From an uncultured archaeon (GTDB taxonomy: Archaea; Thermoplasmatota; Penumbrarchaeia; JASLWR01), in the NCBI GenBank assembly GCA_964430885.1, contig CAYSHM010000006.1, positions 86,645 to 150,644 on the forward strand: a stretch of 64,000 bases of DNA. Direction: 5' to 3'. The notes beneath the pieces are model-generated. The model was not told the origin of the DNA and made no database searches. It worked only from the letters and a program-made list of their open reading frames with translations. Both the position numbers and the translations under genes were made by a program. Shown here one piece after another: positions 24,701 to 63,723 of this stretch. Every line of letters begins with the position of its first letter. The first letter of the stretch is position 1.

Positions 24701-25915
24701 TATAAGCATATCGGGGTAAACAGCAGGTAGATAATAGTAAACCATATCTCCGCTCCGGGTCACATTGCCATGGTCATCTTCTGCTGATATATTATATTTC
24801 ACTGAAGTTGCCCGTTCCATGATCGCTTCATTCCATACCAGGACATATCCGTAGGTGGCATTCTCTATGAATATCATTGGATATGATTGATAAGGTTTTC
24901 CGTCAATGGATATGTTGATCTCCACGCCGGTGACACTTCCTTCATCAATAACGGTGGCCAGAAATGTCACATTTTCGCCCAGACCCGGATTATCTCCAAC
25001 AGGTGTTTTTTTCAGGGATGTCATGATAGGGGGCCCCCCCACGGGACTGGTTACAGTCGGATTTGCCGTGATGTTTCTCCAGAAAGAAATGGTGAGGTTC
25101 TCAGTTGTCTCATCATGTCCAGTCTTTCCATTGCCGCCGGCAGGTATCTCTTCAGCCTCCTCCATGGGGGCTATTCTAGTGAAGGAATTATCCTCTGGAT
25201 GGGCCGATGTGTGAATGGGAGGAAAGGTTGAAGCATCGTTGGCATAGGTACTTTCGTCAAGATCCCCGTCAAGGTCAGAATCGATGCTTACTCCGCTCTT
25301 GTCAACCTTGTAATCCTCATCATTCCCCCACCAAACTATATCTACATCCCTTACAAGGTCCATGACACCGTCCCAATAAAATAGTACAAGGGTTTCACCC
25401 GAATCGGTTAGGGATGCACTTCCGCCTATAAATCCCCGTGTTTCATTCATTCTAGGGCTGAAACCTTCCTGAAGTATATAATTCGGCCTTATGCTGTAGG
25501 CATCTATGAAGCCCACCTCGTCGAAGGCGATTATCTGATGCTCCCAAGGGGATATGGTACTATCCGTGGGAAATGACGCTATGAAATCCGTGGCCAATTG
25601 CTGGTTGAATCCCAGGAGCAAGTTGGTGATGTTGTAATAATCGGTAATGTCCGCGATATAATAATTGTCTAAGGAAATTGTATTATCAGTGGGATTCATT
25701 ATCTCTATGAATTCCAAATTCCCGGGTTTCACCTTTACTTCGTTGATCACCAGGTGGTCCATCAAGGCCCTTGCATCGTTCTTTGCTTCTCCGTTCCTCT
25801 CTGAAAAAGCGACATTGGACGCGGAAAAACAATTCACCAGCAGAAATAATGTCATCAGCATTATTGCACTTCTTGTTGGGCGAATACCTATATTTTTTAC
25901 AGATGGACTTTTCAT
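21704..25915 (-). CDS. Lamin-tail-domain surface protein, tandem paralog of 17325..21536
   Basis: Same domain order; shared blocks such as FYWDG..DLV.DVDIVWWG.DE.YK.DK.GVSIDSD.DGD and GNG.TGHDETTENLT. Confidence 0.75.
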   Translation of the reverse strand: MKSPSVKNIGIRPTRSAIMLMTLFLLVNCFSASNVAFSERNGEAKNDARALMDHLVINEVKVKPGNLEFIEIMNPTDNTISLDNYYIADITDYYNITNLLLGFNQQLATDFIASFPTDSTISPWEHQIIAFDEVGFIDAYSIRPNYILQEGFSPRMNETRGFIGGSASLTDSGETLVLFYWDGVMDLVRDVDIVWWGNDEDYKVDKSGVSIDSDLDGDLDESTYANDASTFPPIHTSAHPEDNSFTRIAPMEEAEEIPAGGNGKTGHDETTENLTISFWRNITANPTVTSPVGGPPIMTSLKKTPVGDNPGLGENVTFLATVIDEGSVTGVEINISIDGKPYQSYPMIFIENATYGYVLVWNEAIMERATSVKYNISAEDDHGNVTRSGDMVYYYLPAVYPDMLIHEVMFKPDNEASGWKLTDCWVELLCLDDNNLGLGNTLMNWGTNDLEGEMDKVFGNILVRTGESVLVHFNSDSMDEWNATDGNNDMILDTYSEATNTRLDDSEDQLLLYDPDGMVLDAVCWAGPGELEGSEEEDLNVTFDLGHWDSKNYQDCVDSESVEDGKSISRSVDEQDSNTKNDWYIMDRPNPGTPFNKSDLAPFIGEVILTPEAEMGILKPNTNITLEVNITDELELDSAELIWSLEGINQPNILLENNGAGADISADDNIWTCVIPGKELGTSIIFKLMARDIGGQITFSNDYNYLFFQYPEIIITEIMLEPEAGEDWVELYCANDANSGDGNILLDWELTDMESTRYEFGATLVRTGDYLLIHFDDDVSVDEGNATGGNDDGIIDLYTDASSGIMATTGDQLVLYNEDDIIMDAIAWQRDGTLKSGEITDMEELKHENAWNSSVITGCFNLTGIDDGISVARRYHHSQNLFIDTDTKDDWYLDNIPSPGMGGHSPPPDFNFTVLTNSSDNADKSYRINWEWKAPRVNDQLSFELFYRKGNSTPVKIADAIPEEQNYLWNTAEVVNGSYFLIGKVNYSSYCQIEKITDHPLVIVHVPVYPPEIVSSWPADGGNRLPVNVDIAVEFDRAIDRDSFILGTTFIITPTVQGSFSLEDDVKVIFDPSNNLDYDTLYSITIKDVESNKGRLLLDEYHFTFKTEVQPTFNVKGSISPETSTVEIDGEEIDVDKDTFEIRLVNGSHDIVISSPGYTTHVDTFFVNGLDMILDDIVLQKTVKPPKKFKVEIGPFLMDGESLKGVRVWFTLNDTYYENTSGNDGKAVFWLEMESLPDGVKIYGRYEEDKVEWTWGNENPYDAFENREASGNKEGNKTLWTILIILMALIIIVALAMVIYAVKSKKEDEAEPEKVEIGDQGEEEAEDKKGGDENREAVTEERAGDSGSEKDGEEGMDGEESGEDVKPADEEDEGKKGGKTEGEKIDDVNDEEAIPSMPTLIPA

Positions 25916-46700: not shown

Positions 46701-47682
46701 TTGAGGCGGATGCGATCATCTCGTCATCCGGAGACCAGTCAACAGATGATACTGCCTGTGTATGACCCGTGAAATTGACATAGGTATACCCGGTGTCCGG
46801 ATCCCATACCTTAACATCCCGATCAGCCGAACCGGTTACGATCTTGGAACTGTCCAATGACCAGTCCACACATAGAACATCATCTATATGCTCCTCATAG
46901 ACAAAAAGCTCAGCACCGGTGTCTGCATTCCAGATTTTCACAGTATTGTCCGATGATGCAGTTGCTAACTTAGTACCGTCTTGAGACCAGGCAACGTCGT
47001 TGACAGTATCCGAATGACTGGTCAATTCCTGATCCACATTACCGTTCTGAGGGTTCCAAATGAATACCTTGGAATCATTACCTCCCGAAGCTATCTCATC
47101 TCCCCCGGGCGACCAATCCACACACCGAACCTGATCTGTATGCTGGGTGAAGGATAGTATTTCCATATCGTCAGGATTTGCCACATTCCAGTACCAGATA
47201 AGTATCTCACCGTCCTCTGAACAGGATACCACCTTGTCGCTGTTCGGGGACCATGAAATATCTGTGACCCTATTGTCAGGAACACCGTCATAGTGACCCA
47301 GAAAAGTAGCTTCAGAATTACCGGTTATGGTGCTCCATACCTTTGCTTTTCCTGAAGCACTACTACTGGCAATGTGCATTTCATTAGGCGACCATTCTGC
47401 TGAAAGGACATCGTCAGAATGCATCGCATAACGTATCCTCTCGTCAGTTTCGTTCCATTTCCATATCATAGCGTCGCCGTCGGAATCGCAGCTGACCAGC
47501 TCTGTACTGTTGGGGGCCCATGATACACAATTAACGAAACCGTCATGGTTCCTGAAGGAGTTGTCAGAGAGATAATCATCTATTGTGGCATTGGTGTTGA
47601 TCACGAAGGGAAATGACGCACCGATCAGGATCAAAATTATTAGAAAATTCAGGATTGTATTTCTCATTATGTTCGTTTTCAA
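43768..47682 (-). CDS. Single-pass surface protein with 7 WD40 repeats, Ig-like stalk and long Pro/Gln-rich tail
   Basis: Signal peptide; seven H...V..V.WSP....IAS.S.D..V.IW repeats; TM WVWFILIIIIVLGLGLGIALFIW then KKKK; ~290-aa tail. Confidence 0.8.
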   Translation of the reverse strand: MKTNIMRNTILNFLIILILIGASFPFVINTNATIDDYLSDNSFRNHDGFVNCVSWAPNSTELVSCDSDGDAMIWKWNETDERIRYAMHSDDVLSAEWSPNEMHIASSSASGKAKVWSTITGNSEATFLGHYDGVPDNRVTDISWSPNSDKVVSCSEDGEILIWYWNVANPDDMEILSFTQHTDQVRCVDWSPGGDEIASGGNDSKVFIWNPQNGNVDQELTSHSDTVNDVAWSQDGTKLATASSDNTVKIWNADTGAELFVYEEHIDDVLCVDWSLDSSKIVTGSADRDVKVWDPDTGYTYVNFTGHTQAVSSVDWSPDDEMIASASRDGTIDVWLLTAPPIQPEINIPKTSVKRGNTTRVYGRTESYFSLPDQLTAEFQYKLRNPGGNPWSDSMFTNPVSQGNWWYVDFEPELDTETGYYDIRVRFQDPNGLYSNWETKAQGLRVINNKPVIENILGPVSLFRTETSTMYVAVSDEEDYEDELAVAAQYSLSDEETITWRSDIFTEPIFDDNEGKWGFDLTFPKTSKPGLYDIRIRAEDKDGSVSDWYDMNHQINLHNNLPSVANLTLSPSVFHRGECGVIWIDPVDLEDGSDILDARVEVKNSTSDWTPLPVNHNEDGINFSVCFNTTLDHELGQYRIRVSLEDRDHGMAPWYYYNSTLELMNNPPEIFEEFTVFHLYSHRSREFSLWDLAWDTEDPKEELVWSIKTAKTNFISATVKNNNILNITPVSMLSVGEFSIALTVKDKDGDRRDKSIFVNIHDWTECPDVGIFQTYPLDQITLSDNTPELKWDINYTERSPSYAVHMGLFPDQISPVREGIIANSYTTEELIDGMTYYWMVEVSFFGVYSTFRSNIRSFKVDLDFEPEHDISIEFDTIQLTQLKEGYTTTFNVTVSNDGNVPEEITLTVLGAFDSFTQLEHDSFLLHPKDDRDIKLTVHWPDLDLMASKFFVKAVSADTDISQSIPFEKSERESSSEGNGGSGASWVWFILIIIIVLGLGLGIALFIWKKKKDVDDRESEPQDASMDLLAMGMGQSNMGPVYGGIPSQGYQSGAGSPQGYGGPQPGAAGGPNQTQAQVGPAPQQQTGAVPSRPPSFAQGARNQKKRRETASQGEKAKAQPPKARPPRAVQKVTAGEKEITKQGGEDEQNQKDMGETKELLQTLDRFKINITQQLADLQARNAPELETAPLQIKLENLDSQRKELMEKLSGKPTQTLESNRTAAEKPQPDSKPIPSPNEVPSLMETPHEPIPPKPPASVSETQNPPPPPANHGDKRTNGPTAGNEDYEDVLSTLNQLRSSLKAEKS

Positions 47683-52354: not shown

Positions 52355-53149
52355 TCATTCCAGTGTAAGCATTAATTCATTCAAACCTTCAATTTCGATT
52401 TCGTCCCCGGCCCAGTTGGAAATGATATCGCCGAAATCAGTTGATAACCTATTGACAATTTCCTTCATTTTGCTGATGGCAGGTTCAACATCCTCTCCCT
52501 TTCCAATGACAATAAGATAAAACCCTATACCCTCTTCTATCAGTATGTTATGGTCCCCTTTCTTGATATTCTTCAGGTTTCCCTCAACGGATAATGAATC
52601 GGATATGAACATCTTAACAGCAGTGAACATCCCGCCAAATGTATCATCATCCAAGTTCAGGTCCTCTCTAACGGTTTTTTTATACATCACTAGACCACCT
52701 TCTTTCAAAAGCATTACATAGGTAGTTGTAAATGTATCGAACTTTGTCAAGGATCTCTTCTTTGTAATAGCGTTTTCAACTGCACCAAAGAGCTTCTTGC
52801 TTTTTACAGGTTTAACAATAAAATCCAGAGCGCCCTTTTTAATTGCATCCACACCTGTTGTTATATCATCAACGGCACTTATCATGATGACCTGAACATT
52901 GGGGTCCTTATTTTTGATCAAGGACAAACATTCCAGACCGCTCATTTGGGGCATATTGATGTCTAGAAGGACCACAGAAGGTTCCACCTTTTCCATCATT
53001 TCGAGGGCTCTAATGCCGTTATCGGCAGTAAATACAGGATAATTCCTTTTTTCCAGAAGCCTGCTGAAAGTAACCCTTATGAAACTCTCATCATCCACAA
53101 TCAGTATCTTTTCCTCTGAAACATCTATCCCGTCAAGATCGTTTTCCAT
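52355..53149 (-). CDS. Response regulator receiver fused to a longin/roadblock-like C-terminal domain
   Basis: ILIVDDE, LLDINMP, MISA and FIVKP; C-domain DDDTFGGMFTAVKMFISDS...ILIEEG..YLIVI....NWAGD. ATG at 53149 (track start 53173). Confidence 0.8.
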   Translation of the reverse strand: MENDLDGIDVSEEKILIVDDESFIRVTFSRLLEKRNYPVFTADNGIRALEMMEKVEPSVVLLDINMPQMSGLECLSLIKNKDPNVQVIMISAVDDITTGVDAIKKGALDFIVKPVKSKKLFGAVENAITKKRSLTKFDTFTTTYVMLLKEGGLVMYKKTVREDLNLDDDTFGGMFTAVKMFISDSLSVEGNLKNIKKGDHNILIEEGIGFYLIVIGKGEDVEPAISKMKEIVNRLSTDFGDIISNWAGDEIEIEGLNELMLTLE

Positions 53150-53342
53150 TGAACAGCCCCGATATAACAGCATTCAAATCCATAGTTGCGGATTAATATA
53201 TTCAGTATGAAATCATCTAAGTTAGTATCAATACCCAGTTACTGAAATATGTAATTGTATTAGAATATTATATCATATTTTGCAAAATAGTAAAACTTAT
53301 ATTAAAACTCTACAGTCCAAAGTAATTCCACAACTCTACCGA

Positions 53343-56300
53343 TCAAGCTACCCAGAACTCAGATACTCTGCTCTTGACACGGGTTATGTTGTCGAATCTT
53401 ATAGCAATCATATCTGCGTCGTTCTCGCCGTGAGGCATTCGATGAATATGATAATCAGTATGGTCCTTGATATTGTTCTCAATATAATCCTGCCAGGCGT
53501 TGGCTACCGAGGATGATATATTTATATAGATCATCTCGCCACCCCCCAGCTCGAAAACCATCGGGTGTGAATGGACCAGTGAGAACTCTATACCAGTGGA
53601 CATCAGAGCTGAAGGCGACGGATTCTGGTTGGAGGATGATATGCTGTACATATCTAGAGTAAGAACTGTCTCATTTCCTATCTTTTCAATCTTGAAAACC
53701 GGTCCGGAAGTGATATATGGGCTGTCGCTGCCCCAATGGCTCTCCACAACAGCGCCCAGCTCGAGTCGGTATTCGCGGTCAGCAGCATGCTGAAGATAAG
53801 GTATGAACTTCACTCCGCCCCAGCCGATCATCCTCCCCTTGCTTCCGATCTCCATTGACAGAAACGGCATCTCTTCGTTGTAGCGCAGATGCCCTTCCTT
53901 TCCAGAACTGCCCACCAATGGAACTGAAGGGGATTTTGTATCTAGAGGTACGAATATGTTGCTTCCTGATATATTGTTCAGAGCCAATCGGTCCATACCG
54001 CTCTTCATGTCCATGAAATCCATCCTTACATCATCCAGGTAGTTCTCCTCGGCATCCTCGGTGTATCTGGGGACATAAAAAGCCAGTACAAGAGTGATTA
54101 TCAGTACAAGTATGGATACAACCATTATGGTACCCACCACAGATGAAACAGCCTTTTGGTCCGTTCTTTTATCTAAGCTAGTCTTCTTTCTATGTGAGAT
54201 TTTGCCAGAGAAAAACGATAACATAATTCCGGTACTCAGAAGAAGTAAAACAGCTGGGGCCAGAATTCCATTATCAGTCAGATCTTCTTCGGGTGTGATT
54301 TTCCCAGATAGACTTGTTATTTCAGTGATGCTTCTGGTGTTTTCAATAATCCAGAAATTATTATAGGTCATGTCAATGGCTGTGAATTCCCCGTCATAGA
54401 CCTGAACTCTTACCATGTAACGGCCGGGATCCATGGCTACTATATCCCAGGAATAACTAGATACATTCCAATAACCTGAGGCTATGCCCACCCAGTTCAC
54501 TCCGTTATCTATGCTGTAAAACAGGCTTGTATAAAGCACAGCTCCAGCATCAGGGTCTGACGCTATCCATGTGATATTGATAGAAGGTTCACTGTAAAAG
54601 CCACCTAATGAATATCCGATGGTTATTCCCCGGATAACCGGCGATTCCTGAATAATATTGCTCGCCAGTATTAGTCTGTAGCGGATGTATTGGTTGTTGC
54701 CAATGGATTCTAAAGTCCAGTTCCCAGGATTGGTGGAATTTTCTTGTATAGATATCCAATTAGACCATGAGGTATTATCCGATGAAATGGCTACATGAAC
54801 TGTTACTGAGGTCTGTAAAGGGATTACTCCATCGATATCGATGAAATCGAATATGACTGATTCTCCGCCGTTGAATCCTCCAGATATATATACACCAGAA
54901 GGCTTGTATTCCAGTACCAAACTGGTAGTGAAGTAGGTGGGACTGTTCATTCCCTGGTTGGTGGACCAGTCGAAATTGGCCCCAATATCACGCTGGAAGT
55001 CGAAGATTCTCATCTCCTGGGTTATGGGGGAGTTCCCGTCCCTGAAATAATCGAAGTAAAAGTCGGTCCCAGTTCCAATAATGTAAGCTCTATAGCCAAC
55101 TCCTGTTGAGTATACATTATTAAAATTTCCGTTATTGTTTGTATCCGCCTGCAGTCCCAGCTGGGTGAATCTGATATCCGGAGTCCCGTCTTTATTGAAA
55201 TCAATATAATAGTTGAAATTACCCCCGTAGTTGCGGATAAATATGCCCTGTTCGTCATTTACTTCGTCATATGCAAGTTTCAATTCCTCTTCGGGGCCGT
55301 AATCGAAATCCCGAGTATATTCCGAATCAACTCCATCAGCGCTTATATTCTGATCTTTATCTATTTCGGTCCACCCTTCATTCTCATCGGCATAAAGTTT
55401 CAGTTCACCATAAGTGGAATTCCAATCGATCCAGGTTATATTGCCGTCCTGGAAATCGGAATCGGTCTCATCAATGAATTTGAGAGTATCTGAACCTATA
55501 GGAGTAAGAAGTTCAACACTAGGTGCCTCATTGATGTTCTCCACCGCGAAATTCCCATCTGATATATCATAGGATGTTTCTATTCCGTCAAAGGCCATGA
55601 CCATGATCTGATAATCAACACCGTCACTCAAAATATTTGTATCCCATGTATATATTCCGTCATTGGGTGTGCCCATTACAAGCACGATCCAAGTAACACC
55701 GTTATCGGGACTGTAGTACAGGTCTACCTCCGTGATCTGATCGTGTGGGTCTTCATCATAAGCGGTCCATTGAATATCATAATAAGCATTTATTATTTCT
55801 CCGCTGATAGGCCTATCGATTTGGGTAAATGGCGGAGAGTTGTAATTGTCTATATGGACTGGTTCAGTTGTTGTATTTGTGCCGATTTTTGTTCCGTCTG
55901 ATGCAGAGATCCTAATGAAATAATCACCGTCAGAATATGCAGTTGTATCCCAGAAATATACACCATCATTGGTCTCGTTCTCGGAAAGGATGATCCAATT
56001 GTCACCATCAAGGCTGTATTCTATTGATATATTCACCTCATCCCCGTCACGGTCCCAGGCATCCCAGGATATGGGTATTGTTCCGGTCACAATCTCCCGG
56101 CCAACCGGATAGACTATACTAACCCTGGGTCTTGTGTTATGCAGCGAAGTGACTGTGAATTGGATTTCGTTATAATAGATGTCCCCTGTGGCGGAATTTT
56201 CCGAAGTAACCTTTAACCAATAGGTGCCAGGATCAATCTCTTCAGGCAGGGTCAATCTGGGACTCTTGTAGGTCACAAGGCTCGTCAAGCTGTTATCCAA

Positions 56301-58499
56301 CATCATAATGTCCCTGACCCCCATGCCAAGCTTAGTAAGGTTGACTTCAACATTTTTTACAAGCTCGGGAGCACCGCTGCCCATCAATCTTGCATAAATA
56401 ACAACGGTCTTCTTTCCTTCAATACTTATATCTATGCTTCGGGGTTCGGCCCAAGTGGATACGATGGAAAATGAATTTGGTCCCCCTGTGTTATTGAATA
56501 TGGATTGAATTTCATTTTCATTAGGATTTTTGGTAACACCTTCTGCAAAAAATGAATCCTCAAATATTGTTTTCTTTGTTCTCAGATTATATAGATATAC
56601 ATTGACCTTGGCTGTTGTATCGGGTTCAAAGATATAATATGACCATGTTTCACCAGGCTGGAATCTCTCGATGTTCTGGGAGCCGGTGTTCTTATGGAAT
56701 GTCCCGTCTCCCAATTTCACGAACTCCTTGTTTATATCGTTGAAATACAGCCTCACCTCGTAATCCTCCACATCCAGGAATTCTCCTCCCTGATGGTAAA
56801 GAGTGATTTTTCCTGTGCTGTTGGCACTTATAATATCCCAGGAGCCTTCCATTTCCACATAATCGATATCTTCGGGTTTCTCTACATTGTAAACCCAGAA
56901 AGCGAGTATGGAGGCTAGAACAACCGTGATAGCAACCATAAGGATAGTTCCTATTACCGGTGATACACCATTCTTGTCTCTTTTAGATCGTCTGTTCCGG
57001 GAAGCTCTACCTTTTTCCGAATGGGATTCCCCGCCTTTGACCTTACACTTAGTTTCTTTCCTCTTCTTTCTTATCCTCATCTCCATGATCAATCCCCCCA
57101 AAGAAATCAATAAAAGAACAATGCTAGCAATAATCAGGGTGACTGCGGTGAGGCCTATTCCTTCATCATCCTTCCCAGTTTTGTCATCGTTGGGATTGTC
57201 TGAATCGGATATGTCATCATCTCCAGAGGTGTCATCCCCCGTTGTATCGTCATCACTGGTTATGTCATCATCCTCTGTTGAATCGTCATCTCCAGATGTG
57301 TCATCATCTTCTGATTCAGGCCCACCATTATCCACAGAAATATTATAGAAATCCATTATGAACGCGGTATCGGTGGACCTTGTCATATTGATGAACCATA
57401 TCTCATTTATTTCAGTATTTTCAATACCATTCAAAGTATACAGATCCCCGGTATAGGTTGTAATGAAATAGTTCCCCGCACTCGCCAAATCGCCCGTTTC
57501 TGTAGGCAGGTGGTATTTGGGAAGAATAACATTATAAAGAGGATCCAAAAGACCAATGTCCTTCAGCTGCAGGTATCTAACCGCTGGTTCCCAGGCATCA
57601 ATGGTTTTCTTGATAGTTGATCCAGGTATGTCGGAATAACCATATTCTCCCACAAGATGCGGAGGGACATCCAATAGTTTGCCAAGATGATTTTTTTCCT
57701 CTGTGATATAGAAGCTTAGGTTCAGATTGTCCTCTCTATTCAAGGTCAAACCGTCCAGAATGGCCTCCAGAAAATGCAATTCAACCTTTTTAGAAATACC
57801 TGATTCTTCACTGCCGTGAAGATGAATTTTCCCCTGATCTGGGTTCTTAGAACCAATATTTGATCTGGCAATAAGTATGTCATTTGATCTGAATTCGATA
57901 TTGTTTGAAAACTCGATTTCCGTACCTAAGATGTAGACAATTGTGGAATTGATCTCGGCATTTCCATTGATGTCAAATATGCAGTTGGAAATCCTTATGA
58001 CCTTTCCCTTGAAAATAGCACTGTTAGCATGAATGGTTTCCTCCATTAGGTCTAAAGTACCGTACCCAAGGGAATTCAGGTATTCGTTGGTAATTATCTT
58101 GGAGTCCTCGATAACTATACTGTTTCCTGATCCATGATTGTTCTGGGACTTTATTATTCTGAAATGACTGGGTGTATTGAATGTAGAGTTCATAATACTT
58201 ATAGACGAATCAGGACCGAGGACGAAAGTCACATCTGCAGAGTTCCAGGTGATATCCTTAATTTCCAGGTCTGCCCCCTCATTAAGCAGAACTATTGTTG
58301 TATCATTGAAGACAGGATGCTCTGAATCATCCCATACAATGGAATCCGTGAGAATCAGAGATCCCCCTCTATTAAGCGTACTAGCTGCTTCTGCAGAAGT
58401 TAAGTCAGTAATGGGTGAAACCATAAGCTGAAGAAGAATAAATGTCCCCAGTATGCCTATAAGAGTACCATCCTTTCCTATGTTCGCCGTTCGTTTCAT
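53343..58499 (-). CDS. Giant multi-module type IV pilin-like protein with two internal class III signal peptides
   Basis: RDKNG|VSPVIGTILMVAITVVLASILAFWV (aa 511/512) and DQKA|VSSVVGTIMVVSILVLIITLVLAFYVP (aa 1450/1451); Ig-like repeats (W.A.D.D...YS.DNG..W); ATG directly abuts the upstream stop. Confidence 0.75.
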   Translation of the reverse strand: MKRTANIGKDGTLIGILGTFILLQLMVSPITDLTSAEAASTLNRGGSLILTDSIVWDDSEHPVFNDTTIVLLNEGADLEIKDITWNSADVTFVLGPDSSISIMNSTFNTPSHFRIIKSQNNHGSGNSIVIEDSKIITNEYLNSLGYGTLDLMEETIHANSAIFKGKVIRISNCIFDINGNAEINSTIVYILGTEIEFSNNIEFRSNDILIARSNIGSKNPDQGKIHLHGSEESGISKKVELHFLEAILDGLTLNREDNLNLSFYITEEKNHLGKLLDVPPHLVGEYGYSDIPGSTIKKTIDAWEPAVRYLQLKDIGLLDPLYNVILPKYHLPTETGDLASAGNYFITTYTGDLYTLNGIENTEINEIWFINMTRSTDTAFIMDFYNISVDNGGPESEDDDTSGDDDSTEDDDITSDDDTTGDDTSGDDDISDSDNPNDDKTGKDDEGIGLTAVTLIIASIVLLLISLGGLIMEMRIRKKRKETKCKVKGGESHSEKGRASRNRRSKRDKNGVSPVIGTILMVAITVVLASILAFWVYNVEKPEDIDYVEMEGSWDIISANSTGKITLYHQGGEFLDVEDYEVRLYFNDINKEFVKLGDGTFHKNTGSQNIERFQPGETWSYYIFEPDTTAKVNVYLYNLRTKKTIFEDSFFAEGVTKNPNENEIQSIFNNTGGPNSFSIVSTWAEPRSIDISIEGKKTVVIYARLMGSGAPELVKNVEVNLTKLGMGVRDIMMLDNSLTSLVTYKSPRLTLPEEIDPGTYWLKVTSENSATGDIYYNEIQFTVTSLHNTRPRVSIVYPVGREIVTGTIPISWDAWDRDGDEVNISIEYSLDGDNWIILSENETNDGVYFWDTTAYSDGDYFIRISASDGTKIGTNTTTEPVHIDNYNSPPFTQIDRPISGEIINAYYDIQWTAYDEDPHDQITEVDLYYSPDNGVTWIVLVMGTPNDGIYTWDTNILSDGVDYQIMVMAFDGIETSYDISDGNFAVENINEAPSVELLTPIGSDTLKFIDETDSDFQDGNITWIDWNSTYGELKLYADENEGWTEIDKDQNISADGVDSEYTRDFDYGPEEELKLAYDEVNDEQGIFIRNYGGNFNYYIDFNKDGTPDIRFTQLGLQADTNNNGNFNNVYSTGVGYRAYIIGTGTDFYFDYFRDGNSPITQEMRIFDFQRDIGANFDWSTNQGMNSPTYFTTSLVLEYKPSGVYISGGFNGGESVIFDFIDIDGVIPLQTSVTVHVAISSDNTSWSNWISIQENSTNPGNWTLESIGNNQYIRYRLILASNIIQESPVIRGITIGYSLGGFYSEPSINITWIASDPDAGAVLYTSLFYSIDNGVNWVGIASGYWNVSSYSWDIVAMDPGRYMVRVQVYDGEFTAIDMTYNNFWIIENTRSITEITSLSGKITPEEDLTDNGILAPAVLLLLSTGIMLSFFSGKISHRKKTSLDKRTDQKAVSSVVGTIMVVSILVLIITLVLAFYVPRYTEDAEENYLDDVRMDFMDMKSGMDRLALNNISGSNIFVPLDTKSPSVPLVGSSGKEGHLRYNEEMPFLSMEIGSKGRMIGWGGVKFIPYLQHAADREYRLELGAVVESHWGSDSPYITSGPVFKIEKIGNETVLTLDMYSISSSNQNPSPSALMSTGIEFSLVHSHPMVFELGGGEMIYINISSSVANAWQDYIENNIKDHTDYHIHRMPHGENDADMIAIRFDNITRVKSRVSEFWVA
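57211..57310. repeat. Degenerate 15-18-bp repeats encoding a DDDTSG-like acidic linker
   Basis: DDDTSGDDDSTEDDDITSDDDTTGDDTSGDDD, just before the first internal TM. Confidence 0.7.
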
Positions 58500-59777
58500 T
58501 TACACCACCAGATTAAATAGTACCAGGCCCGTGAACAGCATAATGGATATATGCTTAAAACCTCCTTTCACGGTACCGTCCAACATAACGCCTACCATAA
58601 TACCTCCGCCGATCCCCTGGACGAATATTGCCAATAGAGAGTAATCCTCAAGGGTTTGGAGGGTTTCCTCGGATAATCCTCCGCTGAATGATTCAGGAAG
58701 TGCTTCGGAGTCTGAGAGTTCACTGTCCTCTGCTTCGCCGGTTATCATCTGGTTATCCTGAGCATATATTGGTGCAAGAGTACTCATGAGAAGTGAGACC
58801 ACCAGAAGGAACACCATGAAGGAGATGTAGATAATGACCATGTATGTACTCATACGCTTGCTCCTCTCAGTATTCAGATACTCGATCTCCTGTGCATCTT
58901 TGGCCGCACCATGGAGCACATCGCTGATCTTTCCTCCTGACACAGAAGCTTCAGCTATCAGAGCTATGGATTTTCGGGTCAACGGAGTTTTTACACGTTC
59001 ACCGAATAATTTAAGGGCCCTGGGCAGGGTTAAACCCCATTCTAAATGGGCTGCAAGTTTCTCCAGATCCTTCTGAATTATACCGTAATTGCCGTCCGCA
59101 GCCTTCTTTATTGCTTTGTGGAGCGGAAGTCCTGTTGAAACCGTTTCTGCCAGATCCAGAAGCAGTTCAGGTATACGTTTATTGATCAATTCCTCCCTTC
59201 TGCTCTCGTAGTATGTGTAATAGATGCCCACAGGTGTGGTGAAACCTATTACAGTCAATATCATGAAATCAAGGGATGAAAGAAAGGTTATGCTCCCTTT
59301 GTAGGCGAGTAGCGAGAACAGGGCGAAAATTCCTGATAGGATGAGTGCTATACCGTAAGTTAGCCTTCTGAAAGCAAAGAACTTCATCTCCTGCCAGTCA
59401 CCATGATATTTTCTCGATGTTGTAATCTCCCCTCCGACCTCCTTGATGTAGAGGACCAGGGGGAAAACAGCAATTATTATACTGATCATAGGAATAATCA
59501 CAACATTGTCATATTTCGCACTTGCTAAGGAAAGTGATTCGGGATTTGAGAAAATCAGCAGAACCGAGATGAGAGATATTAGAAATAATATCACTATTAT
59601 TATAGTGATCCTTCTACCAGTAAGGAAGAAGCTGAGAGTTCTAGCCTTCTTGTGCTCACCCATGCCGTCCTCCTCGGGGGGAACTTCTTGATACCTGCTA
59701 TCGGTATCTAAGGACAGGGATTCCATCCATTGGTCGGTGTATATTTCCTTTTTCTGTTTGTCTTTATTATCCTTCAT
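58500..59777 (-). CDS. Type IV pilus platform protein (TadC / T2SS F family)
   Basis: IPELLLDLAETVSTGLPL..AI, YG, WG.TL..AL, SGG.ISDVL and YMVIIYISFMVFL. ATG at 59777 after GGAGGTGA (track start 59867). Confidence 0.88.
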   Translation of the reverse strand: MKDNKDKQKKEIYTDQWMESLSLDTDSRYQEVPPEEDGMGEHKKARTLSFFLTGRRITIIIVILFLISLISVLLIFSNPESLSLASAKYDNVVIIPMISIIIAVFPLVLYIKEVGGEITTSRKYHGDWQEMKFFAFRRLTYGIALILSGIFALFSLLAYKGSITFLSSLDFMILTVIGFTTPVGIYYTYYESRREELINKRIPELLLDLAETVSTGLPLHKAIKKAADGNYGIIQKDLEKLAAHLEWGLTLPRALKLFGERVKTPLTRKSIALIAEASVSGGKISDVLHGAAKDAQEIEYLNTERSKRMSTYMVIIYISFMVFLLVVSLLMSTLAPIYAQDNQMITGEAEDSELSDSEALPESFSGGLSEETLQTLEDYSLLAIFVQGIGGGIMVGVMLDGTVKGGFKHISIMLFTGLVLFNLVV

Positions 59778-59796
59778 GATGTTCACCTCCTTTCTT

Positions 59797-61035
59797 TCAG
59801 TTATCCCTCGAACTCTTGAACAGCAGTATAAATCCGAATAATGAAGCAGGCATAAGTAGAAGCACAACCATCTTCAGAAGTGCCATTGATGAAGATGTTG
59901 CCTGAGCGTCCACAAGACTCATGATCAGCGCAATTATGAATAGGAACAGGGGCCCGGCGATGGCGACCACAACAAATGTTTCGGCCAATATGTCCATCTT
60001 CTCCATCTTGTCCTTCAGTTCTATCCTGCTCTCTGTTGAATACTGTTTTGATCTGTCCATAAGATAGTCTTTGATGGCGTTCCCTGATAAAATGGTGGTT
60101 ATCAATCCCTGAAGGAAGTCCCGAAACTTCTTTGAGGGGCTTCTGGAAATTGCTCTTTTAAGGGCTGTGATGGTGTCCTCTTTGAATATCTCGACATCCC
60201 TAACTATAAACGCAGCCTCCTTGGATAGCTCGCCATAGATATTCTTTCTCGATAATATTGCGAAGATCTTGATTATATTAACATTGGAGGCGGTAAGAGC
60301 GCTCATAAAATTGGTAGCAGAAGGGAGCTCCTTGTCAATACCGGCCTGCAGAGTGGATAATCGGGATGAGGGAAATGATATGTAGTAAGCATAGGTTATT
60401 ACCGATGGAAATAACCCAAAGAACACAATGATGAAGATACCTATCATCTGGAGGTTTGCAATATCAGGTATCTGAGCGATTAGGAAGATTACGAAAGCAG
60501 AGAACAGAATGCCTGCGGCCGATGCGATCAGGACCGATGTGAACCATTTGGCTATGTAGACCTCAGGTCTGATATCCAACCGGATCTTGACAAGTTTTGA
60601 CGGCAGGGCAGGATAACGGGAGATCGATTTTCTTGCATAGTTTCCAAAGAGTTTCATTGAAAAACTTTCAAATCCATAACTTCTTTCTTGGGACTTTTCA
60701 TCACGCTTTGATTTTTTCAGCTTGAATAGATAATAAAGGTATGTACTGACACCTGGGGCTACACCCACAGCAAGGAACAGTAAAATAAATGCCATTGCTC
60801 CGATTTCAGGCATGGTGAAGATAAGTGCGATTATTATAACTGCAGATAAGGCCAAACCTATCATACCGGAAAGAAGTACTGCAAGTATCCATACTGTCAA
60901 GTAATCTTCTGGGATTTCTTCTATACCACTCCTGAGTATGTTCATTTCAAGTTTGGGATGATTGTCCAATATTCCTTCGGCAGTATCCCTTACTTGGGAA
61001 TAAAAGGTTCCCTGTTTCCTGTTATTTTTAGGCAT
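59797..61035 (-). CDS. Type IV pilus platform protein (TadB/FlaJ-like, T2SS F family)
   Basis: IDKELPSATNFMSAL, YGELSKEA..IVRDVE, SPSKKFRDFLQG..TTILSG and LAETFV. Confidence 0.88.
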   Translation of the reverse strand: MPKNNRKQGTFYSQVRDTAEGILDNHPKLEMNILRSGIEEIPEDYLTVWILAVLLSGMIGLALSAVIIIALIFTMPEIGAMAFILLFLAVGVAPGVSTYLYYLFKLKKSKRDEKSQERSYGFESFSMKLFGNYARKSISRYPALPSKLVKIRLDIRPEVYIAKWFTSVLIASAAGILFSAFVIFLIAQIPDIANLQMIGIFIIVFFGLFPSVITYAYYISFPSSRLSTLQAGIDKELPSATNFMSALTASNVNIIKIFAILSRKNIYGELSKEAAFIVRDVEIFKEDTITALKRAISRSPSKKFRDFLQGLITTILSGNAIKDYLMDRSKQYSTESRIELKDKMEKMDILAETFVVVAIAGPLFLFIIALIMSLVDAQATSSSMALLKMVVLLLMPASLFGFILLFKSSRDN

Positions 61036-61067: not shown

Positions 61068-63464
61068 TCACTCCTCCGAGAGGGTTCCGTGATCCTCAGC
61101 ATATTCTTCATCATTGTTCAATGCCTCAACACCCTCTTCAGTGAGCCTCCCGCCAGCTCCGCATTGACTGCATCGGAACTCAAATGGCCGGTTTTTGCTC
61201 TTGATATTAATTATATTGCGGCACTGACATCGAATCTTCAAGCTTTTATTGGAATCGTCGGATCGGGGTTCTTCTTTCTCTAAATTACTACTTTCGCTAG
61301 TTTCCATATTGGCCTTTTCCAGCTGATCCTTGAAACATTCCTCTATTCCATCGCCAATGGTCTTCTCTCCTCCCTCAATCGAGCATTTCTCCTTTAGCTC
61401 CTGGAGTTCTTTCACTTCCTCCTCTTCGCCGTCCCATTCCTGATCGTCCTCATAATCCTCCTTTTCTTCCTCCGCATCATCCCCATTATAATCCATGGAC
61501 CATACCTCAACACCATCTTCCTCATCATCATCCAATACATGGGCGGGGACCTCAAGTATGTCATCCAATTCAAGCGGTTTGGGGGGTTTGGAAGGCTTTG
61601 CGAGCTGACTCCCCCACTCCTTGCTTTCCATAGGTATCAGATCTTCGCTTCCCATGGGAACAAGGGCCTTGCTTTCCACCTTTTCCTCCTTACTGGCCTT
61701 CTGTATTGTGATCCGTTTTCTTTTCTTCGTTCCTCTGCATACGAATGGCCCGTCCTTGCTGAACATCTTCATTACCTTTTTTGGATTCTTGTAATACTGG
61801 GAAATAATACTGACAAACTCATCATACTCCCTTATATTGTTGGACTCCATGCATTTGATTATTCTTTCTCTTCTCTTGAGCTCCCTAATTAGTGCCTTCC
61901 GGTCCAAATTGGTTAGTTCCATGATCTTATCGAAAAGAATCGAATCTCCTAAAAATGAAAATGTATCATCCTCTGGATTCCAATTGAATACCTGGCCGGT
62001 TATCAGATCATTCGTCTCAGATTGGAATTTGCGTATTTCGACAACGCTTTTCACACGTCTTACATATTTGTCGCCGATCATTGTCGGCGTAAGGATTATC
62101 ACAAAATCAAGGGCCTGCAGCAGTGATCTAGGGATATTGATAGGGGGAGATTCCAATCTCTGCACAAGGGTTTTCTGTGAGTGAGCATGGATTGTGCTCA
62201 TGGTTGTATGGCCAGTAGCCATTGCCTGGAAAAGAACATAGGTTTCCCTGCCTCTGACCTCGCCCATTATTATATATTTAGGCCGCTGTCTAAGGGCCGC
62301 CTTGGCAAGATCGAACATGTCGATGTCCCCTCTTACCTTGCCGCCGCCAGAGCTTCCCTGGAGACTCTCACGGGTAACCCCGGCGATCCAGTTCTCATGG
62401 GGCAGGTTCAGTTCATGGGTGTCCTCTATTGATACGATCTTCTTATTGGGATCAATAAACAGGGAGGTTGCATTGAGCATAGTGGTCTTCCCAGATGCAG
62501 TACCGCCTGCGAACATCATGGAGAATCCGTATTGAGTAGCTATCCATAGAAAGGCCGCCATAATAGGTGTGATGGTCTTGTTTCTAACCAAGTCTATGGG
62601 GGTCATGGGTTTTTCTTTGAACCTCCGGATAGTGAATGACGAACCTCCTATGGTAACTTCGTTGGAAAGTGTAGCGTGGAGCCTTGAGCCATCAGGCATT
62701 GTAGCATCCAGAATGGGCTCGGCTATGGTTATGGACCTGTTGCTTCGCTGGGCCAGGGATATGACATAGGAATCAAGAACGTCATCGTCATTGAACAAGA
62801 TATTGGTTCTTAGTGACTGGTGTTTCCTGTGATCTACAAAGACATGCCTTCCTGGTCCGTCACAGGAGATGTCCTCTATATCACCATCTTTCATTATGGG
62901 ATCTATCTTCCCGTACCCGATGAAATCCCTGTTAATATAGTATTTCAGCTTTTTCAATTCCTCAGCATCTACATCCATGGAATATCTATTTATTATATTC
63001 CTAATGCCCTTGGCCATGTATGATTTTTTCCGTGTATATTTTTCCCGTTTCTTATGGCTCTTCTTCTTGATGAACAAAGGGCTGTCAGAGAATATGCCTC
63101 TGGTTCTCAGCTTGTGCCTCCTTCTGTCTTTGCTCCTTTTCTTCGATCCAGTAACGTCATTGTCATCAAGACCTACCTGGTCGGCTTCACCCATTGCTTT
63201 GTTCTGGGGGTCCATCTGCTTCAGAAAATCCATATTGCTCATGTAATATAGTACAAGGGACTCCTTCAGGAATTCTAAGTCCCGCTTTTCCTTTTTGGAC
63301 ATTTTTGGTTCGTTGACAACATACCGTTCCAGATCTGTTTCTAGATCTTTTACTATATCCACTTTCACAAGTCCGTTCTCAAATGTTTTGGAATCTAGAA
63401 TCTGGAAGCCTTCTTGTTCACGATTTAGAGAATTATTTGTTTTTTTATTTTTAGAAGTAGGCAT
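61068..63464 (-). CDS. Type II/IV secretion (pilus assembly) ATPase with acidic tail and C-terminal zinc ribbon
   Basis: GYGKIDPIM.D.DIEDISCDG, FTIRRF, GGTASGKTT, SIEDTHE, LRQRP, MGEVRG and TGH..STIHA. ATG at 63464 after GAGGGGTGA (track start 63473). Confidence 0.93.
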   Translation of the reverse strand: MPTSKNKKTNNSLNREQEGFQILDSKTFENGLVKVDIVKDLETDLERYVVNEPKMSKKEKRDLEFLKESLVLYYMSNMDFLKQMDPQNKAMGEADQVGLDDNDVTGSKKRSKDRRRHKLRTRGIFSDSPLFIKKKSHKKREKYTRKKSYMAKGIRNIINRYSMDVDAEELKKLKYYINRDFIGYGKIDPIMKDGDIEDISCDGPGRHVFVDHRKHQSLRTNILFNDDDVLDSYVISLAQRSNRSITIAEPILDATMPDGSRLHATLSNEVTIGGSSFTIRRFKEKPMTPIDLVRNKTITPIMAAFLWIATQYGFSMMFAGGTASGKTTMLNATSLFIDPNKKIVSIEDTHELNLPHENWIAGVTRESLQGSSGGGKVRGDIDMFDLAKAALRQRPKYIIMGEVRGRETYVLFQAMATGHTTMSTIHAHSQKTLVQRLESPPINIPRSLLQALDFVIILTPTMIGDKYVRRVKSVVEIRKFQSETNDLITGQVFNWNPEDDTFSFLGDSILFDKIMELTNLDRKALIRELKRRERIIKCMESNNIREYDEFVSIISQYYKNPKKVMKMFSKDGPFVCRGTKKRKRITIQKASKEEKVESKALVPMGSEDLIPMESKEWGSQLAKPSKPPKPLELDDILEVPAHVLDDDEEDGVEVWSMDYNGDDAEEEKEDYEDDQEWDGEEEEVKELQELKEKCSIEGGEKTIGDGIEECFKDQLEKANMETSESSNLEKEEPRSDDSNKSLKIRCQCRNIINIKSKNRPFEFRCSQCGAGGRLTEEGVEALNNDEEYAEDHGTLSEE

Positions 63465-63723
63465 AATCTTCACCCCTCTAGAAGCAAGAAAAAAATTTAT
63501 TTATAATCTATAAACATTAACTATATGGGAATATATAATATTATACACAAATCTGTTACATATTCACTGCATAAGATTTACAGGTTGAATAAACTACCAT
63601 TATATACGTATGCCTAATAAATTAACAAAATCAGTGTCATTATTTCGGATATTCAAGTGGGGCTTTCATGTAATTGAATATTGGGACACACATATTTATA
63701 ATAATTATCCATTTAACCCAGGT

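What the first reader, a model, noticed from the sequence alone, without database searches (positions are those of the whole stretch)
53343..58499. Candidate pilin polyprotein: one ORF, two internal prepilin-peptidase sites
Seen: signal peptide, ~410-aa domain, acidic linker, TM (~57085-57160), basic loop, then RDKNG|VSPVIGTILMVAITVVLA (cut between 56967 and 56966). A ~900-aa pilin/Ig region follows, then TM (~54205-54270), basic loop, DQKA|VSSVVGTIMVVSILV (cut between 54150 and 54149) and a ~270-aa pilin-like domain. Established: archaeal class III signal peptides ([KRD]-x-[GA] then a hydrophobic helix, e.g. AVSPVIG) are normally N-terminal and are cut on the cytoplasmic face by PibD/FlaK. 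Inference: each added TM returns the chain to the cytoplasm exactly where the peptidase could act, so one precursor would yield three stoichiometric products (anchored protein, giant adhesin-pilin, small pilin). It is the only pilin-like gene in the operon.
Basis: partly seen in the sequence, partly recalled or inferred. Interest (0 to 1): 0.85.

Follow-up and report, generated by a model that had tools for sequence, protein, structure and literature searches.

The report
Fused pilin precursor with internal cleavage sites
One archaeal pilus-operon gene joins three surface proteins that relatives encode separately, which places two pilin signal-peptide cutting sites inside the chain; the same internal-site layout recurs in giant adhesins of many marine relatives.

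Summary
Window 53343-58499 (-) is one 1718-aa frame with five hydrophobic segments. It has two internal class III (Pilin_N) motifs at G511|V512 and A1450|V1451. Each follows a TM helix and a strongly basic loop, giving an out-in-out-in-out topology.

Independent Logan contigs of two runs cover the whole ORF with 0 differences. A distant relative (G005, about 33% identity, 63-65% GC) keeps the B-C junction in frame.

In 9 of 9 relatives' loci the same parts are adjacent separate genes: a giant N-terminal pilin ending in TM plus basic tail, then small DUF7289-type pilin genes. Where the contig allows, a membrane protein precedes them. So this is a read-through fusion of neighbouring genes.

The layout is not unique. 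Ten other giant proteins of this genome, and giant frames (most about 4500 aa) in at least 41 of 300 other Thermoplasmatota genomes, end in "SFAP motif-TM-loop-[A/G]|VSPVIA...-pilin". Position -1 is A or G in 46 of 46. In this genome the pilin part has dN/dS about 0.012.

A FlaK/PibD-type peptidase gene is present. Cleavage at the internal sites is the best reading (about 0.55) but is not shown. I found no description in the papers searched.

The parts
53343..58499 (-). Single 1718-aa ORF (stop codon at 53343-53345), fused A-B-C precursor
   Evidence: whole stretch in one Logan contig with 0 differences in two runs
58404..58499 (-). Residues 1-32: N-terminal Sec-type signal or anchor (MKRTANIGKDG followed by a hydrophobic stretch)
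   Evidence: hydropathy segment 10-32; signal-peptide reading is by eye only
57318..58403 (-). Residues 33-394: part A, orphan outside domain
   Evidence: no homologue in 40 relatives; Atlas best score 0.77; single-sequence AF2 model at pLDDT 44, not usable
57153..57317 (-). Residues 395-449: acidic D/S/T-rich linker (27 D/E in 55 residues)
57081..57152 (-). Residues 450-473: TM helix 2 (stop-transfer, out to in)
   Evidence: hydropathy peak 2.76
56967..57080 (-). Residues 474-511: basic cytoplasmic loop 1 (17 K/R, 4 D/E) ending ...SKRDKNG; in-frame ATG at M474, with M472 just before it
56739..56966 (-). Residues 512-587: first internal Pilin_N domain; predicted cut G511|V512 (between 56967 and 56966)
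   Evidence: Pfam 510-587; TIGR02537; PDB 8fj5_A 'Pilin_N domain-containing protein' E 4.4e-9 over 508-607
54276..56738 (-). Residues 588-1408: part B outside region with repeated Ig/BNR-like units (about 750-1010 and about 1290-1390), adhesin-like
   Evidence: repeat hits in 40 of 41 genomes; Pfam labels of database hits
54204..54275 (-). Residues 1409-1432: TM helix 4 (C-terminal anchor of part B)
   Evidence: equivalent C-terminal TM in unfused giant pilins of relatives
54150..54203 (-). Residues 1433-1450: basic cytoplasmic loop 2 (7 K/R, 2 D/E), no in-frame ATG/GTG/TTG
53346..54149 (-). Residues 1451-1718: part C, DUF7289-type pilin-like protein; predicted cut A1450|V1451 (between 54150 and 54149)
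   Evidence: AF2 model pLDDT 92 with a 61-residue N-terminal helix plus an all-beta domain
58500..59867 (-). TadC/FlaJ-like platform protein (T2SSF); its stop codon abuts the ATG of the fused ORF
59797..61035 (-). Second TadC/FlaJ-like platform protein (T2SSF)
61068..63473 (-). Type IV pilus assembly ATPase (T2SSE plus PilB3_C) with a long acidic C-terminal extension
52355..53173 (-). Response-regulator receiver protein directly downstream on the same strand

Best explanation
The ORF is a natural read-through fusion of three neighbouring genes of a type IV pilus gene cluster in a marine Thermoplasmatota archaeon.

The three parts are:
- A: a Sec-targeted type I membrane protein.
- B: a large pilin-headed adhesin that ends in its own TM anchor.
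- C: a small DUF7289-type minor pilin.

Each upstream part ends with 'TM plus basic cytoplasmic tail'. Each downstream part begins with 'basic leader-[G/A]|VS-hydrophobic helix'. The fused chain therefore inserts as a five-span out-in-out-in-out precursor, and both class III sites sit at the cytoplasmic face, where FlaK/PibD-type peptidases act.

Inferred step: the genome's FlaK/PibD-type peptidase cuts at G511|V512 and A1450|V1451. That would recreate the three proteins that relatives make from separate genes, in 1:1:1 amounts and in one place, beside the ATPase/TadC machine encoded just upstream.

Shown: the frame, the topology signals, the motifs, the gene-order homology, retention of the fusion in a second lineage, and a large family with the same layout under strong selection.

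Inferred: insertion order, cleavage, and the use of the products in a pilus.
For: 1. Frame and motifs are real.

2. Gene-order homology. In 9 of 9 relatives' loci fetched around the C-like gene, a giant ORF ending in a TM lies directly upstream of a pilin gene of about 290 aa and then the C-like gene of about 300 aa, which has an N-terminal class III site.
- In the 7 loci not cut by a contig end, the giant ORF (2020-2568 aa) starts with a pilin helix.
- In 5 of the 9, a protein of at least 800 aa with a C-terminal TM precedes it.
- One locus was annotated by Pfam: VWA/MAM protein, then Pilin_N+CARDB+VWA giant, then 287 aa, then DUF7289.
- The giant pilins of L014 and L020 end '...LGIISLMWVRRNAD*' and '...LLIGKLFGRYRRR*'.

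3. Retention of the fusion. G005 (another family, 63-65% GC, 30-34% identity) keeps B and C in one frame across 'TM-KSGYRRGKTIPRRGLRASRTA|VSNVIG'. That loop has no ATG/GTG/TTG. P0001 loop 2 has no start codon either, so C can only become free by proteolysis.

4. Recurrence.
- 11 of the 14 Pilin_N matches in this genome lie in frames of 1498-2424 aa.
- 10 of these end in 'PSFAP-TM-basic loop-DG|VSPVIAIILMVAITIVLAG...' followed by a pilin of about 161 aa.
- Homologues at 53-55% identity sit at the C-terminal end of 527-1816-aa database proteins.
- At least 41 of 300 other Thermoplasmatota genomes have frames of 1000 aa or more whose match starts before the TM.
- All 29 such loci that I read show the layout.

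5. Selection.
- Position -1 is A (36) or G (10) in 46 of 46, while the rest of the loop ranges from basic to acidic. A small residue at -1 is the residue reported as critical for FlaK cleavage (passage of PMC4307647).
- Among 9 complete paralogues the mature pilin part has median dN 0.011, dS 0.68 and dN/dS 0.012.
- The helix is nearly identical to that of a stand-alone pilin of the same genome: C10, '...DEA|VSPVIAIILMVAITVVLAG'.

6. Enzyme and machine.
- A 376-aa protein carries Arc_PepC_II (E 6.6e-13) and, by eye, the motifs 'MDIRTRK' and 'GGADAKG'.
- The ATPase and two T2SSF genes lie immediately upstream.
- The N-terminal part of B resembles a pilin solved as a 20-chain entry (8fj5).
Against: - No experiment and no RNA or protein data; no RNA holder was listed.
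- No FlaK/PibD enzyme is known to accept a leader tethered to an upstream TM. The reviews I read describe leaders of 6-12 residues and only minimal lengths (passages).
- The peptidase candidate scores only E 0.062 on the catalytic-domain model PF01478.
- The double fusion is rare. 149 of the 150 listed C-domain relatives are stand-alone, about 260-320 aa, with the match starting at residue 43 or earlier. No long protein with a C-like domain was found, but that database does not seem to hold P0001 itself.
- Position -2 is N (site 1) and K (site 2), and T at the second site of G005. This position is not uniformly charged.
- Junction 1 in G005 is only 'consistent': the contig ends 7 residues into the putative TM, and the loop holds a GTG and a TTG.
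- After cleavage B would still be tethered by TM4, so how it could enter a fibre is unclear.
Confidence: 0.55

Rival explanations
1. Uncleaved multi-span membrane protein. The fusion is real, but the internal class III-like helices now serve only as re-insertion (signal-anchor) helices. One five-span protein displays three outside domains. In the giant adhesins, the C-terminal pilin-like domain plus hairpin is a membrane anchor or docking stub.
For: - The topology works equally well without cleavage.
- No known peptidase has been shown to cut tethered leaders (passages).
- The N-terminal region of one adhesin paralogue carries a 'choice-of-anchor J' domain. As I recall, this domain class is named for pairing with varied C-terminal anchors, which would fit the module acting as an anchor.
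- B keeps a C-terminal TM even in unfused relatives, so not every part needs to leave the membrane.
Against: - A plain anchor helix would not need 46 of 46 A/G at -1.
- It would not need a near-invariant 29-residue helix across genera.
- It would not need dN/dS of about 0.012 over a 161-aa domain in nine paralogues whose synonymous sites differ by 0.39-0.92.
- The helix matches that of stand-alone pilins of the same genome, which points to co-assembly. By established pilus structures, co-assembly needs a free N-terminus.
Confidence: 0.25
2. Nested genes. Internal translation starts inside the long frame make B (from M472/M474) and, in the MGII-type giant genes, the pilin (from a Met at -8/-9 or -2) as ordinary precursors with N-terminal leaders. 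The read-through product would be minor or incidental.
For: - In-frame ATGs at M472 and M474 sit at the end of TM2, preceded by GGGGGGA.
- 23 of 46 module sequences have a Met within -14..-1, mostly the MGII-type ones.
- A major pilin made 1:1 with a 4500-aa protein would be costly.
Against: - Loop 2 of P0001, loop 2 of G005 and the loops of all 10 paralogues of this genome contain no ATG, GTG or TTG.
- GGGGG is no better a start marker here: it precedes 1.5% of presumed starts and 0.7% of internal Mets, whereas GGTG precedes 25% and 4%.
- Separate genes would not need the frame kept open across the junction in 29 of 29 loci read.
Confidence: 0.1
3. Artefact or decaying gene: an assembly or sequencing error, or a recent loss of stop codons without function.
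For: - The assembly is a MAG from a metagenome.
- X1 and X2 may be the source samples, so they are not independent support, and junction 2 has no cover in X3 or X4.
- The fusion is absent from nearly all relatives.
Against: - Logan's independent assembly of two runs gives the identical 5157 nt. X3 and X4 contigs bridge junction 1 at 100%.
- G005 keeps the B-C junction despite about 67% amino-acid divergence and a 20-point GC difference.
- All three parts stay open, with outside-type composition and sequons.
Confidence: 0.05

Closest known systems
Canonical archaeal type IV pilins with class III signal peptides (Pilin_N/PF07790, for example the Haloferax PilA type), processed by PibD/FlaK/EppA
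   Same: Same HMM family and same site grammar: small residue at -1, VSPVIG-type start of the mature chain, a hydrophobic helix of about 20 aa, then a beta-rich domain. Same operon partners (ATPase, TadC). A FlaK/PibD-type peptidase gene is in the genome.
   Different: The sites are 511 and 1450 residues from the N-terminus, and the 'leader' is tethered to a preceding TM helix. Reviews describe N-terminal leaders of 6-12 residues (passage of PMC4307647). Neither census paper that I searched by 'find' mentions internal sites or fused pilins (PMC4858521; PMC13705601).
The unfused pilin cluster of related Thermoplasmatota (VWA membrane protein, giant Pilin_N adhesin with C-terminal TM, 287-aa pilin-like protein, DUF7289 protein)
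   Same: Same order of parts. The same C-terminal 'TM plus basic tail' on the upstream proteins. The same N-terminal class III start on the downstream ones. C is homologous at 23-27% identity.
   Different: These are separate, tightly packed genes. Part A here is not detectably homologous to their upstream protein. The middle pilin of about 290 aa is missing here. B is shorter (about 900 aa against 2000-2500).
Modular (bimodular) pilins of bacteria, for example Streptococcus sanguinis PilB (seen as search listing and abstract only)
   Same: A pilin head grafted to a bulky adhesion module, as in part B.
   Different: Those have one N-terminal class III signal and no further membrane spans or downstream pilin.
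C-terminal tripartite sorting signals (PGF-CTERM/archaeosortase, PEP-CTERM/exosortase); recalled, not read here
   Same: The adhesin modules carry 'short conserved motif ([P/A]SFAP)-TM-basic residues'. An exosortase/archaeosortase-family gene is in the genome.
   Different: Here the signal is not terminal. It is followed by a conserved 146-185-aa pilin. P0001 itself lacks the SFAP motif.
Membrane polyproteins with alternating stop-transfer and internal signal sequences (for example the structural polyproteins of enveloped RNA viruses, cut by host signal peptidase); recalled
   Same: The same topogenic logic: each stop-transfer helix is followed by a new signal that restarts export and marks a cut.
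   Different: A different peptidase class, acting on the opposite (cytoplasmic) face; cellular pilus genes, not viral ones.

Membership tests
Archaeal type IV pilin / class III signal peptide protein (Pilin_N, PF07790; TIGR02537) | HMM match above the curated cut-off | tested here: met
   PF07790 at 78.1 bits against 25.2, two stretches. TIGR02537 at 35.9 against 20. The second site alone scores 24.3 bits, just under the cut-off.
Archaeal type IV pilin / class III signal peptide protein (Pilin_N, PF07790; TIGR02537) | Signal peptide at the N-terminus of the precursor (short leader) | tested here: not met
   The sites lie after residues 511 and 1450, each behind a TM helix.
Archaeal type IV pilin / class III signal peptide protein (Pilin_N, PF07790; TIGR02537) | G/A at -1, followed by a hydrophobic helix of about 20 residues, with the site facing the cytoplasm | tested here: met
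   NG|VSPVIGTILMVAITVVLA and KA|VSSVVGTIMVVSILV. The basic loops fit the positive-inside rule. This is a topology prediction only.
Archaeal type IV pilin / class III signal peptide protein (Pilin_N, PF07790; TIGR02537) | Cleavage by a PibD/FlaK/EppA peptidase | not testable with these tools
   Only a candidate gene was found: Arc_PepC_II at E 6.6e-13, PF01478 at E 0.062.
Archaeal type IV pilin / class III signal peptide protein (Pilin_N, PF07790; TIGR02537) | Linked to a type IV filament assembly ATPase and platform protein | tested here: met
   T2SSE plus PilB3_C ATPase and two T2SSF genes lie directly upstream on the same strand.
DUF7289 (PF23960) pilin-like proteins (part C) | HMM match above the cut-off over the domain | tested here: inconclusive
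   C alone scores 21.8 bits against a cut-off of 27, over profile positions 2-55 only. 42 of 50 aligned relatives match DUF7289, best E 1e-16.
DUF7289 (PF23960) pilin-like proteins (part C) | Stand-alone protein of about 270-320 aa with the hydrophobic helix at the N-terminus | tested here: not met
   149 of 150 listed relatives have the match starting at residue 43 or earlier. Here it starts at residue 1451.
Proteolytically processed polyprotein | One translation product cut into separate mature proteins | not testable with these tools
   Inferred from site conservation and from the lack of start codons in loop 2.
Archaeosortase/exosortase C-terminal sorting signal (for the adhesin modules seen in passing) | Motif-TM-basic cluster at the extreme C-terminus | tested here: not met
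   Motif, TM and R/K are present, but 146-185 further residues follow. A sortase-family gene is present.

The most novel reading that the evidence does not exclude
Marine Thermoplasmatota, including lineages with genomes of about 2 Mb and adhesins of about 4500 aa that look like Marine Group II, routinely make surface adhesins and pilins as one multi-spanning precursor. A class III signal peptidase would cut at internal, TM-tethered sites. This would be a 'pilin-CTERM' biogenesis route that couples adhesin delivery to the pilus machine, possibly together with a sortase acting at the SFAP motif. The 1718-aa ORF would be a double example of the same principle.
Probability: 0.4. Interest if true: 0.85.

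Novelty: new variant of a known kind. Interest (0 to 1): 0.78.

Why it matters
Class III signal peptides are treated as strictly N-terminal. Prediction tools and pilus censuses look for them only there.

If internal, TM-tethered sites are cut, the substrate range of prepilin-type (GxGD) peptidases widens. Pilin repertoires of abundant marine archaea are then under-counted. Giant adhesins would also become linked to type IV pili, mechanistically or at least genetically.

The ORF itself shows how such precursors arise. Neighbouring genes whose products end 'TM plus basic tail' and begin 'basic leader plus class III site' can fuse by loss of one stop codon without disturbing topology.

The claim is directly testable with small reporter constructs and a PibD enzyme.

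Tried and rejected
**Searches that led nowhere**
- The search for homologous proteins on residues 440-1718 gave only 8 hits driven by the Ig/BNR-like repeats. I read the two best (P0002, P0003), which are GC-rich repeat proteins without the junctions.
- The same tool on residues 1400-1718, restricted to proteins of 944-3007 aa, gave nothing. P0001 itself did not appear, so that blank is weak.
- The search for related loci with single proteins (the ATPase, GlmS) found no relatives. An ATPase alignment worked and gave record titles naming Thermoplasmata, Thermoplasmatota, MGIII and Methanomassiliicoccales MAGs.
- A regex scan of those 79 ATPase loci found 19 class III motifs. 17 lay within the first 150 residues of their frames. 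The other 2 were read-through upstream of ordinary starts. This is a crude scan and counts as no evidence either way.

**Part A**
- No homologue in 40 relatives.
- Atlas scores of 0.77 or less.
- The single-sequence AF2 model has pLDDT 44. I discarded it and ran no fold search on it.

**Part C**
- Foldseek of the confident C model against the PDB gave 0 matches at E 0.001 or better.

**Expression**
- No RNA holder was listed, so nothing can be said about expression.
- X3 and X4 give no cover at junction 2.

**Considered and set aside**
- An SD-driven internal start at M472: GGGGG is not enriched at starts in this genome.
- Gene conversion as the cause of the identical pilin modules: nucleotide identity is only 88-93% and dS is 0.39-0.92.
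- Complex prediction was not used. Hydrophobic pilin helices would pair unspecifically, and an enzyme-substrate job is discouraged.

**Literature**
- Searches found no paper describing internal class III sites or fused pilins.
- One search used six exact phrases, among them 'pilin polyprotein', 'fused pilins', 'tandem pilin' and 'internal prepilin'. It returned 0 papers.
- I read only 'find' passages of PMC13705601, PMC4858521, PMC6461757 and PMC4307647. Their supplementary tables were not seen and could list such proteins.
- The wording of the Pfam and TIGRFAM family descriptions was not available to me.
Full report
**What is in the sequence**

Window 53343-58499 on the minus strand is one open frame of 1718 aa. 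It is the fourth gene of a same-strand cluster:
- a T2SSE ATPase with a PilB3_C domain (61068-63473);
- two T2SSF/TadC-like platform proteins (59797-61035 and 58500-59867);
- the long ORF, whose ATG directly follows the stop codon of the second TadC gene and is preceded by GGTGGTG;
- a response-regulator receiver protein (52355-53173).

Pfam Pilin_N matches the long ORF at E 9.2e-22 in two stretches, the best at residues 510-587. The second site (about 1447-1503) also touches DUF7266 and DUF7289 below their cut-offs. TIGR02537 matches 511-536.

**Topology**

A hydropathy scan gives five hydrophobic segments: 10-32, about 450-473, about 512-535, 1409-1432 and about 1451-1476.

The two loops that precede the class III motifs are strongly basic: 17 K/R against 4 D/E in 38 residues, and 7 against 2 in 18 residues. 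The flanks on the other side of each helix are acidic. N-glycosylation sequons occur only in the three long predicted outside parts (6, 14 and 4; none in the loops).

By the positive-inside rule (established knowledge) the chain would run out-in-out-in-out, with both [G/A]|VS sites on the cytoplasmic face. That is the face where the FlaK/PibD active site is described to lie (passage of PMC4307647).

**Is the frame real?**

Four runs of one marine-metagenome study hold the stretch.
- Logan's own contigs of X1 and X2 (47,309 nt each) cover all 5157 nt with no differences or gaps. These runs may be the source of the assembly.
- Small contigs of X3 and X4 match at 100% and bridge junction 1, but do not cover junction 2.

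Comparison gives stronger support. In G005, a genome of another family in the same class, two short contigs together align to residues 493-1080 and 1085-1715 at 30-35% identity.
- The second contig carries B-like sequence, a TM helix, the loop 'KSGYRRGKTIPRRGLRASRTA' and '|VSNVIGAILVFG...' plus a C-like domain, all in one frame.
- That loop has no ATG, GTG or TTG, and the DNA is 63-65% GC against about 42% here.
- The first contig begins '...FAIAALF-RRRQRRRR...' and runs 63 further residues to 'RRDEDA|VSPIVG'. This is consistent with junction 1, but the contig ends 7 residues into the putative TM, and the loop holds a GTG and a TTG. I count it only as consistent.

**Where the fusion came from**

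The C part (1445-1718), searched against 1.84 billion representatives, found 165 proteins at E 0.001 or better. In 149 of the 150 listed, the match starts at residue 43 or earlier of the target. Most targets are about 260-320 aa. 42 of 50 aligned members are DUF7289. C is therefore normally a stand-alone protein with an N-terminal class III start.

I fetched nine loci around C-like genes in relatives.
- In 9 of 9, the C-like gene follows another pilin-like gene of about 290 aa and, before that, a giant ORF that ends in a TM helix.
- In the 7 loci not cut by a contig end, the giant ORF is 2020-2568 aa and begins with a pilin helix.
- In 5 of the 9, a protein of at least 800 aa with a C-terminal TM lies upstream.
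- Two giant pilins end '...LGIISLMWVRRNAD*' and '...LLIGKLFGRYRRR*'.
- One locus annotated by Pfam reads: VWA/MAM membrane protein, Pilin_N+CARDB+VWA giant, 287 aa, DUF7289.

So the 'extra' TM helices of the 1718-aa ORF are the ordinary C-terminal anchors of the upstream proteins. Each basic loop is an upstream tail joined to a downstream leader. Loss of the stop between tightly packed genes gives exactly this architecture without changing any topology signal.

Part A itself has no detectable relative.

**A much larger family with the same layout**

Pfam Pilin_N matches 14 places in this genome, and 11 lie in open frames of 1498-2424 aa. Ten of these, on contigs C26 (five copies), C15 (two), C37, C2 and C1, are giant proteins with an N-terminal signal-anchor. 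They end in 'PPASETPSFAP-TM-short basic loop-D[G]|VSPVIAIILMVAITIVLAGVLWLWV...' followed by a domain of about 161 aa.

One of them carries a 'choice-of-anchor J' domain near its N-terminus.

Selection on the module:
- The mature pilin parts of the nine complete copies are 88-93% identical in DNA but almost identical in protein.
- Median dN is 0.011, dS 0.68 and dN/dS 0.012.
- This is purifying selection, not recent conversion.

Spread of the module:
- Database proteins of 527-1816 aa from other samples carry the same module at 53-55% identity over 90-99% of it.
- In a sample of 300 other genomes of the phylum, at least 41 have frames of 1000 aa or more, most of them about 4500-4700 aa, whose match begins before the TM helix. 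A further 124 matches were not listed.
- I read 29 such loci, and all 29 show '[P/A]SF[A/T]P-like motif-TM-RR...loop-[A]|VSPVIATILMVAITVVL...' followed by 146-185 residues to the stop.

Over 46 sequences, position -1 is A (36) or G (10), -3 is D/E in 42 and -4 is D in 41. The rest of the loop ranges from basic (this genome) to acidic (the small-genome lineages).

The helix equals that of stand-alone pilins of this genome, for example C10 '...NDEA|VSPVIAIILMVAITVVLAG'.

**Enzyme**

The genome encodes a 376-aa membrane protein with the archaeal peptidase A24 C-terminal domain (E 6.6e-13). By eye it carries 'MDIRTRK' and 'GGADAKG' motifs. The catalytic-domain model PF01478 scores only E 0.062.

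An exosortase/archaeosortase-family gene is also present.

**Mechanism**

The best-supported reading is a fused precursor that inserts co-translationally. The steps would be:
1. Sec signal.
2. Stop-transfer at TM2.
3. Re-start at the pilin helix.
4. Stop-transfer at TM4.
5. Re-start at the C helix.
6. Cutting at both class III sites by the FlaK/PibD-type peptidase.

This would give the same three proteins that relatives make separately, in equal amounts, next to the assembly machine.

Arguments for cutting rather than a permanent hairpin:
- The invariant small residue at -1 in an otherwise free-varying loop.
- The extreme constraint on the helix and domain downstream of the site.
- The identity of that helix with stand-alone pilins.
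- The absence of any start codon in loop 2 (here and in G005) and in the loops of this genome's ten adhesin paralogues. Proteolysis is therefore the only way to free those pilins.

Arguments against:
- No enzyme is known to accept a TM-tethered leader.
- The candidate peptidase is divergent.
- The double fusion is rare.
- B stays tethered by TM4 in any case.

Internal initiation is possible for B (ATG at M472/M474) and for the small-genome lineages, where 23 of 46 module sequences have a Met within 14 residues of the site. It cannot explain junction 2 or this genome's paralogues.

**Other structural information**

Residues 508-607 resemble a 'Pilin_N domain-containing protein' solved as a 20-chain entry (8fj5, E 4.4e-9).

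An AF2 model of C from a 50-sequence alignment is confident (pLDDT 92, pTM 0.87). It shows a 61-residue N-terminal helix followed by an all-beta domain. There is no Foldseek match in the PDB at E 0.001 or better.

**Organism**

Record titles of the closest ATPase loci name Thermoplasmata, Thermoplasmatota, marine group III and Methanomassiliicoccales MAGs. The reads come from marine metagenomes. I did not obtain a name for the genome itself.

**Comparison with what is known**

The parts belong to known kinds: Pilin_N pilins, DUF7289, a PilB3-type ATPase and paired TadC genes. What is not described in the papers I could search is a class III site placed internally behind a TM helix, either as a double fusion or as a C-terminal module of giant adhesins (searches; 'find' passages of PMC4858521, PMC13705601 and PMC6461757).

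**Verdict**

This is a new variant of a known kind. Its interest comes less from the single ORF than from the recurrent, strongly selected architecture that it led to.

Noticed in passing
Own genome outside the window: G000 C26:4132-35810 (five tandem genes), C15:3499-18057 (two), C37:7804-15075, C2:27760-33039, C1:244385-251278 (cut by the contig end): Ten giant surface proteins (1498-2424 aa frames) end in 'PSFAP-TM-basic loop-DG|VSPVIA...' followed by a 161-aa pilin domain. The pilin part is almost identical in protein but 88-93% identical in DNA (dN/dS about 0.012).
   Followed up: yes
Loci L129-L134 and L143-L162 (G070, G128, G257, G041, G254, G164 and 20 further genomes): Frames of about 2400-5500 aa (most about 4500-4700) in genomes of about 2 Mb in the same phylum carry the same module. 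Their loop is acidic, and often has a Met at -8/-9 or -2 from the site. That Met could be an internal start for the pilin.
   Followed up: partly
G000:C4:151981-152637 (L141) and, weaker, G000:C3:141798-142517 (L142): Exosortase/archaeosortase-family gene(s) (PF09721, E 2.4e-15 and 1.3e-3). The conserved [P/A]SFAP motif before the module's TM might be a sortase-type signal. This was not tested.
   Followed up: no
G000:C5, locus L021:1471-2601 (-): The only FlaK/PibD-type candidate found has a clear Arc_PepC_II domain but almost no score on Peptidase_A24. Its two Asp motifs (seen by eye) lie unusually far apart. The peptidase is divergent and may have unusual substrate handling.
   Followed up: partly
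window 61068-63473 (-): The pilus ATPase (801 aa) has a C-terminal extension of about 220 aa. It is very acidic and ends in a C-x-C...C-x2-C zinc-ribbon-like motif (seen by eye).
   Followed up: no
window 17325-21536 (-) and 21704-25915 (-): Two adjacent paralogous 1403-aa proteins with Lamin Tail Domain and Big_5 domains. They are probably further surface proteins.
   Followed up: no
window 43768-47682 (-): A 1304-aa protein with an N-terminal hydrophobic segment, a seven-blade WD40 propeller, repeated Ig-like units, a TM helix near residue 960, and a long Pro/Gln-rich tail.
   Followed up: no
window 53346-54149 (-), model mdfd8f47842e3: The globular all-beta domain of the DUF7289-type part C folds confidently (pLDDT 92) but has no Foldseek neighbour in the PDB at E 0.001 or better.
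   Followed up: partly
G000:C2:72838-77838: A second type IV pilus locus in the genome has an ATPase (49% identical to the window's) and two ordinary N-terminal pilins (364- and 415-aa frames).
   Followed up: partly
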